NCBI RefSeq assembly: GCF_009914755.1
Contig: NC_060928.1
Strand: one strand, 5' to 3'
From: the human T2T-CHM13v2.0 reference genome, Homo sapiens
DNA length: 64,000 nucleotides
Shown here piece by piece: positions 22,234 through 27,603 of this stretch. A model generated the notes under the pieces. That model had not been told where the DNA came from. It ran no database searches and worked only from the letters and a program-made list of their open reading frames with translations. The translations under genes and the position numbers were made by a program. How positions within the stretch are numbered: position 1 is the stretch's first letter; each line of letters starts with the position of its first letter.

Positions 22234-22808
22234 AATTCCAGGTGGCAGAGGTGAGCAGAATAACCTGAAAAGAATATCCTCCGTAAAATAAGTCAAACTG
22301 ATGAACTCTACCATATTTTCAACAGGTCTGCAGATCATGGAAGGGTTTTGTGTCAGAGGCATGGGCATTTAGAAGGTGGCAGAGTCTAAAGGTGCAGGCA
22401 AATGTTGGAAGACTGTGATGTCATCTCTTCCTACAACCCTTCACATTTTCAATAACATTACCAAATTCACAAAATCATTGACTGGACTTTCATGGAAAAT
22501 GACATAGTGAACGTCTTCACGTTGGCTGGTGTAGGCTGGATTGTAATGGTATCAACATGCTAAGATTGACGATGATTAGAGGTGACCATAAGAAAATGGA
22601 ATTGGGAAGTCATAGAAGTTATGTGGTGAATTCACATACACAAAAAGTGGCATATTCAGCACTATTCACAATAACAAAGATAGGGGATCAACCCAAGTGT
22701 CCATCAATGAATGAATGAAGGAAATGTGTTATATATACACACAATGCAACACTACTCAGCCATAAAAAACGAATGAGTTGTCATTTGCAGCAACATGGAT
22801 GGAACTGG
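22234..22808 (+). repeat. Arm 1 (source) of ~575-bp inverted duplication
   Basis: Reverse complement aligns end to end with 26978-27553; its L1MA part continues naturally past 22808. Confidence 0.98.
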
Positions 22809-23170
22809 GGGTTATTAAGTGTAATAAGCCAGGCACAGAAAGACAGATTTCTCATTTTCTTACTCATATGGGAGCTTACAAACTTGATCCCATGGATGTA
22901 GAAAGTAGGGTAATAGATATCAGGGTCTGGGGAGGATATATGGGTGGGAGGGGTGATGAAGAGAGTTTGGTCAATGAGTACAACATACAATGAGATAGAA
23001 GGTGCAAGTTCTGACATTCCATCGCAGAGCAGGGTGACTAAAGTTAGCAACAACATACTGTATATTTCAGTCTCTAGAAGAGAGAACTTGAAATGTTTAC
23101 AACACAAATAAGTGATAGATATCCCAAATACCCTGACGTAATCATTGCGCATTCTATACATGCCACAAGA
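22657..23170 (+). mobile_element. L1MA 3' fragment
   Basis: cagcactattcacaata...tcatttgcagcaacatggatggaactgg...gcagggtgactaaagttagcaacaa. Confidence 0.85.
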
Positions 23171-23453
23171 AAACCTAGCATATTGAGAATTTGAGCCCAA
23201 GTCACCTAAACCTTCAAGAAACTGAAATCCCAAGTGACATCTAGGTTACATGTCTCATTCCTTGCCAACAACTAGGGCCACAAATGCATAACTGGACTAT
23301 TATAAATGTGATAAAATAAAAGAAATTAATATATCAAAGTTACATGGAAATGGTAGGATGCTATAATTAGGCCAACACCAATTATAATGGAAATACTTCC
23401 TTTGAATAAGGCAGGATGTTTAGTGATACAGCTCATAAAAAAACAAGCCTTTG

Positions 23454-23755
23454 GGCTGGGCACAGTGGCTCGCGTCTGCAATCCCAGAACTTTAGAAGGC
23501 CAAGGCGGGTGGATTACCTGAGGTCAGGAGTTCAAGACCAGCCAGACCAACATGGTGAAACCCCATCTCTAATAAATACAAAAAATTAGCCAGGCGTGGT
23601 GGGGCATGCCTGTAATCCCAGCTACTTGGGAGGCTGAGGCAGGAGAATAGCTTGAACCTGGGAGGCAGAGGTTGCAGTGAGCTGAGATTGCACTCCAGCC
23701 TGGGCAACAAGAGTGAAACTCCATTTCAAGCAAACAAACAAAAAACAAACAAAAC
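23454..23755 (+). mobile_element. AluSx-like
   Basis: Dimeric Alu, cctgaggtcaggagttcaagacc; TSD acaagcctt on both sides. Confidence 0.93.
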
Positions 23756-24054
23756 CCACAAGCCTTCTCTGTGTACTAACTAAAAAAAAAAATTTGCCTT
23801 AACAGGATGTGCAAGACTGCCTTTGCTTTTATACCTACTCCAAAGTACTAACTATGATTAAAAAAGAAATTATCTCTGGATCTCATAACAATCCTAACAG
23901 TAGCTGAAATGTGACAAACCAGAAAGGTAAAGAAAAATGGAGTTATACTGAGGTTAGCTTCAAGAGGCACTTCCTTTTTTCCCTAAAATGAAAACTTTAT
24001 TTTTTTTTTGCTTGACCATAAAAGACACATATGTTTACTGTAGAAAGTCAATAT

Positions 24055-24680
24055 TCTGGTGTCTCTCTCTTCCTCTTATAAGGATACAAATCCTATCAGA
24101 TCAGGGCCCCAAGCTTTTGACCTCATGTAACCTTAATTACCTACTTAAAGGCCTTGTCTCCAAATACAGTAAAAATCTCAGGTGCTTTCCAGCTCTTGAT
24201 GCACATTTTCACGAACAATTTATGATTGTGCCCATTATCCCTTGCAAATCAAGTATTCTCTACCTCCTCCCACATCAGACTGATAGTTTTAGTTTTTTTT
24301 TTAAATGTTGAGATGGAGTTTCGCTCTTGTTGCCCAGGCTGGAGTGCAATGGCACAATCTTGGCTTACTGCAACCTCCGCCTCCCAGGTTCAAGTGATTC
24401 TCCTGCCTCAGCCTCCGAGTAGCAGGGATTACAGACACCTGCCACCACACCTGGCTAATTTTTTGTATTTTTAGTCGAGACAGGGTGTCACCATGTTGGC
24501 CAGGCTGGTCTGAAACTCCTGATCCACTGCTTCGGCCTCCCAAAGTGCTGGGATTATAGGTGTGAGCCATCGTGCCCAGCCTGATAGTTTTTAAAACAAT
24601 AGAATCTTGTTTTTATAAATGTTTATGTCACATTGGGGGCTAGACCAAATTTTGGATGGACATGATTCAGTTCACAACAC
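24055..24680 (-). mobile_element. MLT1A/B-like MaLR LTR fragment, interrupted at 24170/24627 by a duplicated segment and an Alu
   Basis: tcttataaggatac...gacctcatgtaaccttaattacct...tctccaaatacagt | cacattggggg...attcagttcacaaca. Confidence 0.75.
24292..24581 (-). mobile_element. AluS
   Basis: Dimeric Alu; TSD ctgatagtttt at 24280-24290 and 24581-24591. Confidence 0.93.
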
Positions 24681-24914
24681 CTTCCCATAAACATTTCAGA
24701 TATTTAAATTCATGTCAATATAGACCTACATGATCATTTTAATGGTTTCCTAATATTCTCTTGTATGGATATACCATCATTTAAAAAGACACATGTATTT
24801 CTAAATTTTAATATTCTAAATAATGCTGCAATGCAAATATATTTATGCCTATGTGCACTTACGTTTGTACCCTATTCTAATAATTTCCTTGTAGCATATT
24901 CCAGGTAAAGAGTC

Positions 24915-25092
24915 ACCTTGTCCCTTTGGGCTTAGGAAATTGGCCTAAGAAGATGTTGCTATTCTGGCTATTGCTGTTGTTGTGAGTAATAAAGTTTTTG
25001 TCTCTGGCCCAGGCATCCATGAAACTGTTATGGCCTAACCTGTTGGCTGTGCCAGGAATGTAAAAATCTCAGGTGCTTTCCAGCTCTTGACA
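24915..25092 (+). mobile_element. Old ERV LTR 3' portion (family not determined)
   Basis: gtgagtaataaagtttttgtctctg polyA region and terminal ...ctcttgaca. Confidence 0.5.
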
Positions 25093-26272
25093 TACATTTT
25101 AAAATCCAACAATTTATTACAGTGTCCTTTATCCTTTGCAGATAAGGGATTATCTACCTCCTCCCTTATTAGGCTGATTGCTTAGGAAAAAAAAATCAAT
25201 AGAATCTTGTTGTATTTACAACTTTTTGTTTTTTGGCCATTCCTATAGCTTTTTTTGTAAACATCGATTTTTCTATTGTGTATTTTCTGTACAAAATTTA
25301 ACATTTTTTTCTATATTAGAAATACTGGCATTTTGTCTGCTAGATATTGACTTTTTTTCAACCTAAGTATGTGTTTTATTTTTCTAAAGTCAAATATAAA
25401 AATATTTTGCTTTGTGAGATTTTTGTCTCGATGTCATGTCTTCTCCCCTTTAAAATGAGTGCATAGTGACATATCTTTGCAGATATTCAGGTGGGCCATC
25501 AATTGGCAGGAAGAGTACACCTGCACCCCCCTCTTCCTAATTGAGTTATCCAATTTGGTTGACGTAAGGTAGCTGAGCAAACGTTTCATACCTCAGTGTA
25601 GCTTTCTTTGCCTACACCTCAATATGCCAGTGGCAGGGGCTTGTGGCCCAGCAACACTATCCTGTCCACTCTGGGGCTTCCCTGTGCTACACCACAACCC
25701 TTTATACTTGGAACTTACATCCCAATTCCAAAAGGCTTATACAAACAGTTGCTGAACTTAAAATCCCACTTCTGTTTATCAAGACCTGGCTCTCCTGAAC
25801 CAAATTCAGTCTGCCCATGTCTTCACCCCTTTTACTCCTCTTTTGCAGACTTCAAGCTATTATCATACTTTACTTGTCCAAAAAATTTTAGAGTCATTTC
25901 GCAAATATTCCCTCATCTCACTCCCAAGCTCAATACCAGTAGAATCTTCAATGGGATTGCATTAAATATGCCATTTAATTTGAAAAGCATTGATGCCTGA
26001 ATCCACAGCATATTCCCATACATTCTTGCAAGAATCTTTTCATAGCCCTCATATGTCTTTTTCATATTATCCTACATGTTTATTGGTAAGTTTCATCTGT
26101 ATTTTTTATTGTTATTTATTTTTTCCTACTGTATAACCAGTTAGTATATGTAAAAACCATTGACTTTAATATCTTATAGCCAGCCATTTAACTTAATTTT
26201 ATTGGCACTAATAGTTTTCCAGGTGATTATTTGCAAATAATAGATAGCTGTAGTCCATTTCTGTAGTGGCAT

Positions 26273-26450
26273 TTAGGGTAGCCAGATGAAATAGGACCAA
26301 AAATTGTTTGCTCAGGTAAACTGATAAGTTTTTAGTATGAGTTTTTTCTATGCAATACTTTAGAGTACTATTACTAAAAAATTGTTGTTCATCTGAAACT
26401 CAAGTTTAACTAAGTGCCTTGTATTTTTATTTGGTAAATCTGGCAAGTTT
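26273..26450. mobile_element. MER53 palindromic hAT MITE
   Basis: tagggtagccagatgaaatagga...ctcaagtttaactaagtgccttgtatttttatttggtaaatctggcaa. Confidence 0.8.
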
Positions 26451-26734
26451 GGTTGTGGTGCTAGCACTACAAGAATTGTGCCAAATAATGATGATAGCAT
26501 TGCCGTACTATTTCTGTTTTACTAGAAATGACTCTACAGTGTTTCTCTGTCAAGTATGTTAATAGCTCCTAATTTTAGTTATAAGTTCAACAGGACCAGA
26601 GACCACTCACAAGTTTGTAAGCACAGTCCCAGCACCATGCCCGATATACAGTATATGTTTAAAAGATATTGACTGGATAAGTGATAAATATGCTTTACCA
26701 TGTTAGCAAAGTTTAAGAAAGAAATTGTATAGTT

Positions 26735-27603
26735 GGCTGGGCACGGTGGCTCACGCCTGTAATCCCAGCACTTTGGGAGGCCGAGGTGGGTGGACCACGA
26801 GGTCAGGAATTTGATACCAGCCTGACCAATATGGTGAAACCCCGTCTCTACTAAAAATACAGAAATTAGCTGGGCATGGTGGTGCGCACCTGTAGTCCCA
26901 GCTACTCGGAAGGCTGGGGCAGCAGAATCGCTTGAACCTGGGAGGCAGAGGTTGCAGTGAGCTGAGATGGCACCACTCCAGTTCCATCCATGTTGCTGCA
27001 AATGACACCTCATTCATTTTTTATGGCTGAGTAGTGTTACATTGTGTGTATAACACATTTCCTTCATCCATTCATCTATTGATGGACACTTGGGTTGATC
27101 CCCTATCTTTGTTATTGTGAATAGTGCTGAATATGCCACTTTTTGTGTATGTGAATTCACCACATAACTTCTATGACTTCCCAATTCCATTTTCTTATGG
27201 TCACCTCTAATCATCGTCAATCTTAGCATGTTGATACCATTACAATCCAGCCTACACCAGCCAACGTGAAGACGTTCACTATGTCATTTTCCATGAAAGT
27301 CCAGTCAATGATTTTGTGAATTTGGTAATGTTATTGAAAATGTGAAGGGTTGTAGGAAGAGATGACATCACAGTCTTCCAACATTTGCCTGCACCTTTAG
27401 ACTCTGCCACCTTCTAAATGCCCATGCCTCTGACACAAAACCTTTCCATGATCTGCAGACCCATTGAAAATGTGGTAGAGTTCTGTCAGTTTGAATTCTT
27501 TTATGGAGGATATTCTTTTCAGGTTATTCTGCTCACCTCTGCCACCTGGAATTGCACTCCAGCCTGGGCGACAGAGCAAGCCTCCATCTAAAAAAAAAAA
27601 AAT
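26735..27603 (+). mobile_element. AluS (Sg/Sc-like) split by a 576-bp insertion in its right arm
   Basis: Alu 26735-26981 resumes at ~27551 (attgcactccagcctgggcgacagag) with A tail; TSD aaattgtatag flanks the whole unit. Confidence 0.95.
26978..27553 (-). repeat. Arm 2 (derived copy) of ~575-bp inverted duplication
   Basis: Reverse complement of 22234-22808; 27078-27442 identical to 22344-22708. Confidence 0.98.

What the first reader, a model, noticed from the sequence alone, without database searches (positions are those of the whole stretch)
22234..27553. Inverted 575-bp duplicon with diverged ends but a 100% identical 365-bp core: ongoing arm-to-arm gene conversion and candidate 4.2-kb inversion
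Seen: 26978-27553 is the reverse complement of 22234-22808. About nine differences fall in 22283-22343 and several substitutions/indels in 22709-22790, yet 22344-22708 equals 27078-27442 with no difference, including CpGs that normally decay. Known: inverted repeats homogenise by intrachromatid gene conversion and mediate recurrent NAHR inversions. Inference: an old duplication with a recent conversion tract, too short (<1 kb) for standard segmental-duplication catalogues; the 22809-26977 spacer may flip.
Basis: partly seen in the sequence, partly recalled or inferred. Interest (0 to 1): 0.8.

Follow-up and report, generated by a model that had tools for sequence, protein, structure and literature searches.

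The report
Small inverted duplicate with converted core
A 577-base piece of human chromosome 4 was long ago copied backwards into a nearby Alu element, and the middle of the two copies was later made identical again by gene conversion; this is a real but ordinary kind of genome feature, and no flip of the DNA between the copies has been reported.

Summary
Arm 1 (22234-22810) and arm 2 (26976-27553, reverse complement) align over about 580 columns with 13 substitutions and 3 indels. All differences lie in two short islands. A 365-bp core (22344-22708 = 27078-27442) is identical. Such clustering arose in 8 of 2,000,000 random placements.

Arm 2 sits exactly inside an Alu that keeps its own target-site duplication, so arm 2 is the derived copy. 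Arm 1 is the source and is continuous with an old L1 3' tail. Comparison with 28 other L1 copies shows derived changes in both arms. The duplication is therefore old, with about 6% flank divergence, and the core was homogenised later, within about 3-8 Myr.

"Ongoing" conversion is not shown, and the inversion remains a prediction only. CHM13 has the ancestral orientation. The locus is absent from a 612-region catalogue of repeat-flanked inversion candidates and from a T2T inversion set. No outgroup or second haplotype could be examined.

Verdict: a new member of a known kind, of modest interest.

The parts
22234..22810 (+). Arm 1, the source copy (577 bp). Positions 22234 to about 22652 are single-copy DNA. 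Positions 22653-22810 are the start of an old 5'-truncated L1 3' end that runs on to about 23106.
   Evidence: Alignment. Only two full-length places in the genome. L1 matches cover query 14-467 of 22640-23110. The L1 continues past the arm end without a break.
22283..22343 (+). Left divergent island: 8 substitutions and a 1-bp indel in 61 bp. It includes a CpG in arm 1 (22282-22283) that reads CpA in arm 2.
   Evidence: difference list.
22344..22708 (+). Identical core in arm 1: 365 bp, 39.7% G+C, 3 CpGs. Inferred gene-conversion tract.
   Evidence: String identity checked. Clustering test.
22709..22809 (+). Right divergent island, in the L1-derived part: 5 substitutions (counting 22809) and two 4-bp indels. 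Arm 1 carries a derived 4-bp deletion and a derived A>G at 22809. Arm 2 carries a derived TATA loss and a CpG>TpG change at 27016.
   Evidence: Polarised against 28 L1 copies.
26976..27553 (-). Arm 2, the derived inverted copy (578 bp), inserted inside an Alu. Its identical core is 27078-27442.
   Evidence: Junctions.
26735..26977 (+). Host Alu, 5' part (243 bp), ending exactly where arm 2 begins.
   Evidence: Alignment with 8 other window Alus shows that the 5' part ends and the 3' part begins at adjacent Alu positions. SRP-like Rfam hit at 26736-26850.
27554..27603 (+). Host Alu, 3' part with its A-tail.
26722..26732 (+). Upstream target-site duplication of the host Alu (AAATTGTATAG). The matching copy lies at 27604-27614.
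   Evidence: Read directly.
22811..26975 (.). Spacer of 4,165 bp that would invert if the arms recombined. It holds the rest of the L1 tail, an Alu on + (about 23454-23760), an Alu on - (about 24281-24629) and the 5' part of the host Alu.
21406..39588 (-). Intron of the TET2-AS1 lncRNA that contains both arms. A primary transcript would carry both arms and could fold back on itself.
   Evidence: Gene table supplied with the finding. Duplex of the two arms as minus-strand RNA: -1043.9 kcal/mol, 562 pairs. Transcription and folding in cells are not shown.

Best explanation
This is a small, old, local inverted duplication whose centre was later homogenised by gene conversion between the arms. Step 1 (anatomy shown, mechanism inferred): after an AluS-like element had inserted at 26735-27603, a break inside that Alu was repaired by copying 577 bp from 4.2 kb upstream, in inverted orientation. 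The join used 0-2 bp of microhomology, with no loss or duplication of Alu bases. This points to a templated insertion by template switching or synthesis-dependent end joining, not to retrotransposition. Step 2 (shown): both copies then accumulated ordinary point substitutions and small indels, reaching about 6% pairwise divergence. Step 3 (inferred from the mosaic): one or a few non-reciprocal exchanges between the arms erased all differences over 365 bp, and probably also over the outer 49 bp on the left. The two unconverted islands mark the tract ends. The last such event lies within roughly the last 3-8 Myr. The 365-bp perfect identity makes the pair a possible substrate for an inversion of the 4.2-kb spacer, but no such allele is known.
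For: Inverted pair and mosaic. Clustering: 8 of 2,000,000 random placements gave a clean run as long. At the flank rate, 23 substitutions are expected in the core and 0 are seen. Arm 2 is the derived copy: the Alu halves abut exactly at the insertion when aligned with 8 other Alus, and the Alu keeps an 11-bp target-site duplication. Arm 1 is the source: its L1 part continues for about 300 bp beyond the arm. Age: 13 substitutions in about 205 flank sites give K = 0.066, with a Poisson 95% range of 3.4-10.8%. Transitions to transversions are 9:4, as for ordinary neutral change. Both CpGs that arm 1 has in its flanks are decayed in arm 2, whereas the 3 core CpGs are intact in both arms. Derived states lie in both arms. 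All 27 L1 copies that cover the site (the 28th is truncated there) have the 4 bases that arm 1 lacks. 26 of 28 have A where arm 1 has G at 22809. Arm 2 has lost TATA and has T at a CpG. Consistency: the per-lineage flank divergence is 0.41-0.53 of the host Alu's divergence from the majority of 10 window Alus, so the copy is younger than the Alu, as it must be. Nothing in the core suggests selection: there is no Rfam match inside the arms, no stop-free frame over 71 aa in the core, and no other genomic copy.
Against: Everything rests on one haplotype of one species. I had no outgroup, so the test that defines conversion (core clustering by species, flanks by position) was not run. The direction of conversion and the polarity of the 9 left-island differences are unknown. 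The two 4-bp indels lie in microsatellite-like runs that mutate fast, so they are weak clocks. Only 2 substitutions could be polarised with any confidence: 22809 is derived in arm 1, and 27016 (paired with 22770) is derived in arm 2. The age range is wide, and a rate of 0.5e-9 per site per year would put the duplication (66 Myr) before the recalled age of AluS elements. The absolute dates are therefore soft. The repair mechanism of step 1 is inferred from junction anatomy alone.
Confidence: 0.8

Rival explanations
1. The duplication is young, and the two islands are clusters of errors made during or after the copying, for example by error-prone repair synthesis near the ends of the insert.
For: 444 of the roughly 580 aligned columns (49 + 365 + 30) show no difference, and all differences sit in two patches of 61 and about 72 bp. 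Replicative repair is known to be mutagenic near breakpoints (recalled, not read here).
Against: Copying errors would affect arm 2 only, yet arm 1 carries derived states in the same island (a 4-bp deletion and 22809 A>G). The substitution spectrum is ordinary at 9 transitions to 4 transversions. The islands are not at the very ends of the insert: the outer 49 and 30 bp are clean. Local divergence of 7-13% is far above any repair-synthesis error rate that I know of (recalled).
Confidence: 0.06
2. Purifying selection keeps the 365-bp core unchanged in both copies because it is a functional element, such as a regulatory element or a structured RNA.
For: The identity is perfect and includes 3 CpGs. 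The arms lie in an intron of TET2-AS1, next to TET2 (gene table supplied with the finding).
Against: There is no RNA family, no long open frame and no RefSeq functional element (gene table). The last 56 bp of the core are plain L1 sequence. A copy dropped backwards into an Alu would have to be under the same absolute constraint as its source. Zero changes against 23 expected would exceed the constraint on almost any known element.
Confidence: 0.03
3. Assembly or polishing artefact: the core of one arm was overwritten with the other in T2T-CHM13.
For: Only that a single assembly was examined.
Against: The arms are 577 bp long and 4.2 kb apart, so single long reads of the kind used for this assembly span both arms and the unique spacer (recalled knowledge of the assembly's data). 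The arms also keep 16 differences, which shows that they were not collapsed as a whole.
Confidence: 0.02
4. The locus is an active flip-flop. The spacer inverts recurrently by crossover in the core, and the conversion tract is the footprint of those exchanges.
For: A 365-bp uninterrupted identity lies well inside the range of repeats that flank validated human inversions. That range starts at 140 bp, and polymorphic examples have 654-bp and 755-bp repeats with 1.7-kb and 3.6-kb spacers.
Against: No entry with hg38 positions 105.33-105.35 Mb occurs in the table of 612 candidate regions, which merges 1,528 calls from five long-read, Strand-seq or optical-map studies of 195 people (format checked). 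None occurs in the T2T inversion paper's supplements either. CHM13 shows the ancestral order. Comparable pairs in the catalogue, such as a 520-bp repeat with a 4,063-bp spacer, were found not to be polymorphic.
Confidence: 0.1

Closest known systems
Short repeat-flanked human inversion candidates in the InvFEST-derived catalogue (Moreira-Pinhal et al. 2026, PMC13629690, Table S1). Examples: HsInv0064 (520-bp 'IR' arms, 4,063-bp spacer, not polymorphic), HsInv0062 (668-bp arms), HsInv0061 (654-bp arms, polymorphic) and HsInv0040 (755-bp arms, 3,589-bp spacer, polymorphic).
   Same: A pair of sub-kilobase inverted repeats of over 90% identity, a few kb apart, and below segmental-duplication size (part 1 of 43 of the table).
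   Different: This pair is not in that table, and no second orientation has been reported. Here the origin of the pair (an insertion into an Alu) and a conversion mosaic can be read from the sequence.
Arm-to-arm gene conversion in large palindromes and inverted repeats of the human Y and X chromosomes
   Same: Inverted paralogs on one chromatid are kept identical by non-reciprocal exchange.
   Different: Those arms are 9 kb to 1.45 Mb long, more than 99.9% identical along their whole length, and often carry genes. Here the arms are 577 bp of non-coding DNA, and only the centre is homogenised.
Interlocus gene-conversion tracts between human duplicates. Tracts are usually a few hundred bp and rarely exceed 1 kb, as stated in Aguado et al. 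2014, PMC3961182 (passages seen).
   Same: A tract of 365 bp or more fits the usual size. The mosaic of identical and diverged blocks is the classical signature.
   Different: None in kind. This instance is simply uncatalogued, because the duplicate is shorter than 1 kb.
Templated-sequence insertions and template-switch repair products (recalled: Onozawa et al. 2014; replicative template-switch models; not read here).
   Same: A copied stretch is inserted at a break with 0-2 bp of microhomology, no target-site duplication and no poly(A).
   Different: The template lies only 4.2 kb away on the same chromosome and the copy is inverted. The event is ancient and presumably fixed, which was not tested.

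Membership tests
Non-allelic (interparalog) gene conversion | Two paralogous copies with a tract significantly more alike than the rest | tested here: met
   365 bp with 0 differences against about 6% in the flanks. 8 of 2,000,000 random placements reach such a run.
Non-allelic (interparalog) gene conversion | The duplication predates the tract: independent derived changes in both copies outside it | tested here: met
   Arm 1 has a 4-bp deletion and 22809 A>G. Arm 2 has a TATA loss and a CpG>TpG change. Polarised against 28 L1 copies.
Non-allelic (interparalog) gene conversion | Phylogenetic incongruence: the tract groups by species and the flanks by position | not testable with these tools
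   No primate or second human assembly is held. The genome search says that G000 has no relatives here.
Inversion polymorphism mediated by inverted repeats (NAHR) | Inverted repeats at both ends with a long uninterrupted identity | tested here: met
   577-bp arms with 365 bp identical. Validated human cases have repeats from 140 bp upward.
Inversion polymorphism mediated by inverted repeats (NAHR) | Both orientations observed in a population or between species | tested here: inconclusive
   Absent from the 612-region table and from the T2T inversion supplements. The ape-genome supplement was not readable. Absence from catalogues does not exclude rare alleles.
Segmental duplication (UCSC track sense) | Length of at least 1 kb (threshold recalled; the paper read takes pairs of 1-50 kb from the track) | tested here: not met
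   The arms are 577 and 578 bp.
Segmental duplication (UCSC track sense) | Identity of at least 90% and not wholly a transposable element | tested here: met
   559 of 580 columns are identical. Positions 1-418 of the arm are single-copy apart from the partner arm.
L1-mediated retrotransposition as the origin of arm 2 | Target-site duplication of about 7-20 bp and a 3' poly(A) on the insert (features recalled) | tested here: not met
   The Alu is split between adjacent bases with at most 1-2 ambiguous bases, and there is no A-run at either end of arm 2.
Long intramolecular dsRNA, a substrate of A-to-I editing | Both arms lie within one annotated transcription unit and pair over a long stretch | tested here: met
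   Both arms lie in the TET2-AS1 intron 21406-39588 (gene table). Predicted duplex: 562 pairs, -1043.9 kcal/mol.
Long intramolecular dsRNA, a substrate of A-to-I editing | Observed editing or dsRNA in cells | not testable with these tools
   No RNA data are held. The locus is not in the supplementary tables of Barak et al. 2020 on long, nearly perfect human duplexes.

The most novel reading that the evidence does not exclude
The pair is a live recombination substrate. The 4.2-kb spacer inverts at low frequency in the germ line or in somatic cells, and current catalogues miss this. The identical core is the footprint of such exchanges. In addition, because both arms lie in one TET2-AS1 intron, the primary transcript carries a nearly perfect hairpin of about 560 bp, with 365 bp perfect. 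That is far longer and tighter than Alu pairs, and it would be heavily edited, or immunostimulatory if it escaped the nucleus, next to TET2.
Probability: 0.12. Interest if true: 0.45.

Novelty: new member of a known kind. Interest (0 to 1): 0.25.

Why it matters
The locus is a tidy example in which source, copy, insertion site, relative age and conversion tract can all be read from a single sequence. It shows that inverted duplicates shorter than 1 kb, which segmental-duplication tracks do not list, can still carry several hundred bases of perfect identity, which is enough for non-allelic recombination. If the spacer did flip, or if the hairpin RNA were abundant, the neighbourhood of TET2 would give the locus some medical interest, but nothing here shows either. 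As it stands, it adds one instance to a well-known process.

Tried and rejected

(2) I searched for the locus in inversion catalogues by coordinate prefix. My hg38 estimate is chr4:105,335,3xx-105,340,6xx. It comes from an offset of 3,310,909-3,310,932, derived from recalled hg38 coordinates of PPA2 and TET2, and the two offsets agree within 23 bp.
- PMC13629690 tables: no occurrence. A first try failed on term syntax. A 'chr4' check gave nothing because the table writes bare chromosome numbers.
- PMC10150506 supplements: no occurrence.
- PMC12058530, the ape genomes paper: the one file held is a PDF without text, so the ape inversion lists were not seen.

(3) Long-dsRNA tables of Barak et al. 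2020: no occurrence of hg19 or hg38 prefixes, nor of TET2. Their Ensembl set kept protein-coding genes only (passage), so a lncRNA intron may simply be out of scope.

(4) A literature search for TET2-AS1 listed 13 papers, and none concerns this repeat judging by title or abstract start (listing only).

(5) Rfam: only sub-threshold hits, all on Alu-derived sequence in the scanned region, none inside the arms proper.

(6) Open frames: nothing above 71 aa in the core.

(7) Retrotransposition as the origin of arm 2 was rejected, because there is no target-site duplication and no poly(A).

(8) The left island could not be polarised, because that part of the arm has no other copy in the genome.

(9) MAFFT placed arm 1 and arm 2 differently around the two 4-bp indels. 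I read those columns by eye from the printed alignment, so the exact placement of the indels is a judgement.

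
Full report
**What is there**

The repeat finder reports three collinear inverted pieces between 22234-22808 and 26978-27553. A gapped local alignment joins them into one 580-column match. It has 12 substitutions, one 1-bp indel and two 4-bp indels.
- Nine of these events lie in 22283-22343.
- Six lie in about 22707-22778.
- The 365 bases 22344-22708 are letter for letter the reverse complement of 27078-27442.
- The outermost 49 bp on the left and 30 bp on the right are also clean.

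Comparison with other L1 copies shows that the homology really extends two bases further, to 22810/26976. This adds one more substitution at 22809. The totals are then 13 substitutions and 3 indels.

**Is it more than chance?**

Arm 2 is the only other place in the 3.1-Gb assembly that matches 22234-22700 over its full length (98%, E 1.1e-229). The other 38 scored matches cover only the last 49 bases or so, which are L1 sequence.

With 16 difference events thrown at random on 580 columns, a clean run of 363 or more appeared in 8 of 2,000,000 trials. At the flank rate, 23 substitutions would be expected in the core, and none is seen.

**Which arm is the copy?**

Arm 2 lies inside an Alu. On the + strand the Alu runs 26735-26977, then comes arm 2, then the Alu resumes at 27554 and ends in an A-run at 27602.
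- Aligned with eight other Alus of the window, the 5' part ends and the 3' part begins at adjacent Alu positions. No Alu base was lost or duplicated.
- The Alu keeps its own 11-bp target-site duplication, AAATTGTATAG, at 26722-26732 and 27604-27614.

The Alu was therefore there first, and arm 2 was inserted into it.

Arm 1 is the source. From about 22653 it is the start of an old 5'-truncated L1 3' end that continues uninterrupted to about 23106. That L1 is 73-78% identical to the best 39 other copies scored.

The junctions of arm 2 show at most 1-2 ambiguous bases, no target-site duplication and no poly(A). This rules out retrotransposition. It points to a templated insertion at a break, by template switching or synthesis-dependent end joining. 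That mechanism is inferred from anatomy only.

**Age**

The flanks differ at 13 substitutions in about 205-210 aligned sites. This gives K of about 0.066, with a Poisson 95% range of 3.4-10.8%. The spectrum is 9 transitions to 4 transversions, as expected for ordinary neutral change.

The host Alu differs by 8.1% (6.2% outside CpG) from the majority of ten Alus in the window. The per-lineage divergence of the arms is 0.41-0.53 of that. The copy thus comes out younger than the Alu, as the anatomy demands.

By recalled diagnostic positions the Alu looks like an AluS type. With the recalled age of such elements (about 30-40 Myr), the duplication would be some 12-20 Myr old. Absolute rates of 1.0-1.2e-9 per site per year give 28-33 Myr. 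The dates are soft, but "old" is safe.

**Both arms changed after the duplication**

I aligned the right island with 28 L1 copies fetched from the same genome.
- All 27 copies that cover the site have the four bases that arm 1 lacks near 22707-22714, so arm 1 has a derived deletion.
- 26 of 28 have A at the column where arm 1 has G (22809) and arm 2 has A.
- Arm 2 has lost TATA from a TA run that arm 1 and nearly all L1 copies keep.
- Arm 2 has TG where arm 1 has CG (27016/22770).
- Three further substitutions could not be polarised.

Derived states in the source arm rule out the idea that the islands are errors made while arm 2 was being copied. In addition, both CpGs that arm 1 has in its flanks (22282-3 and 22770-1) are decayed in arm 2, whereas the three CpGs in the core are intact in both arms.

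**Reading**

The duplicate is old, and its centre was made identical again later. Gene conversion between the arms is the simplest cause and fits the usual tract size of a few hundred bp (passage in PMC3961182).

Zero differences in 365 bp bounds the last event to within 3.4-8.2 Myr (95%), depending on the rate assumed. A single past event is enough, so "ongoing" is not shown.

The clean outer 49 bp on the left would be unlikely if the whole flank were unconverted (P 0.005, post hoc). This suggests a second tract, or patchy repair of one long heteroduplex. The two diverged islands may now act as barriers that confine further exchanges, which is an inference.

**Selection and artefact**

Nothing marks the core as functional.
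- No Rfam family matches inside the arms.
- No stop-free frame in the core exceeds 71 aa.
- The supplied gene table lists no RefSeq functional element.
- The last 56 bp of the core are plain L1 sequence.

An assembly collapse is unlikely, because the arms keep 16 differences and lie only 4.2 kb apart. I could not look at reads.

**The inversion**

The present order is the ancestral one: the L1 is continuous across the end of arm 1, and the Alu halves are collinear around arm 2. A 365-bp perfect identity is well within the range of repeats that flank validated human inversions, which start at 140 bp. Polymorphic examples have 654-bp and 755-bp repeats.

The locus is nevertheless absent from two sets.
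- It is not in the table of 612 candidate regions (format checked). That table merges 1,528 calls from five studies of 195 people, with paired-end predictions and inverted segmental duplications of 1-50 kb.
- It is not in the supplements of the T2T inversion study of 41 genomes.

These searches rest on my estimate of the hg38 position, which I derived from recalled gene coordinates that agree with each other within 23 bp. A common inversion is therefore unlikely, but a rare or somatic one is not excluded. The ape-genome supplement could not be read.

**RNA side**

Both arms lie in one intron of TET2-AS1 (minus strand, 21406-39588, from the supplied gene table). As RNA the arms would pair over 562 positions at -1043.9 kcal/mol. 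That is longer and tighter than the Alu pairs that dominate human A-to-I editing.

The locus does not appear in the tables of long, nearly perfect human duplexes of Barak et al. 2020. The Ensembl set in that study kept protein-coding genes only. Whether the hairpin forms or is edited is unknown.

**Verdict**

The conversion reading is well supported, as far as one haplotype can support it. "Ongoing" conversion and the inversion are untested predictions. The kind of feature is well known: a small inverted duplicate with a conversion tract. This instance appears uncatalogued because it is shorter than 1 kb. Interest is modest.

Noticed in passing
window 21290-21405 (minus-strand exon) within 21057-21443: The TET2-AS1 exon listed at 21290-21405 lies wholly inside a stretch masked as repeat. 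That stretch gives SRP-like/Alu hits on the + strand (Rfam RF00017 at 21269-21414). The exon therefore looks like an antisense Alu exonisation.
   Followed up: no
window 23454-23760 (+) and 24281-24629 (-): Two Alus in opposite orientation lie inside the spacer, 538-875 nt apart and 81-90% complementary (pairs I5, I8-I10). This is an ordinary inverted Alu pair, and it could also pair in the TET2-AS1 precursor.
   Followed up: no
window 1091-3710, 8266-11478, 16616-18887: Direct-repeat families of 85-96% identity (D1 and D4-D12) are 3' halves of fairly young L1 elements. Stop-free frames of up to 364 aa read like the C-terminal part of L1 ORF2 by eye, which I did not test. Two copies abut near 10160-10300. 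No tandem array is present.
   Followed up: partly
window 26867-26918, 24407-24457, 23587-23638, 21267-21318: Sub-threshold Rfam hits to mir-1268 (40-47 bits, gathering score 83), and likewise to mir-1285 and mir-3135, all fall on Alu sequence. They reflect Alu-derived miRNA families, not miRNA genes at this locus.
   Followed up: no
window 22700-22740 and 27043-27082: The two 4-bp indels between the arms sit in short tandem runs, (AATG)n-like and (TA)n(CA)n. They probably arose by slippage and are poor clocks.
   Followed up: partly
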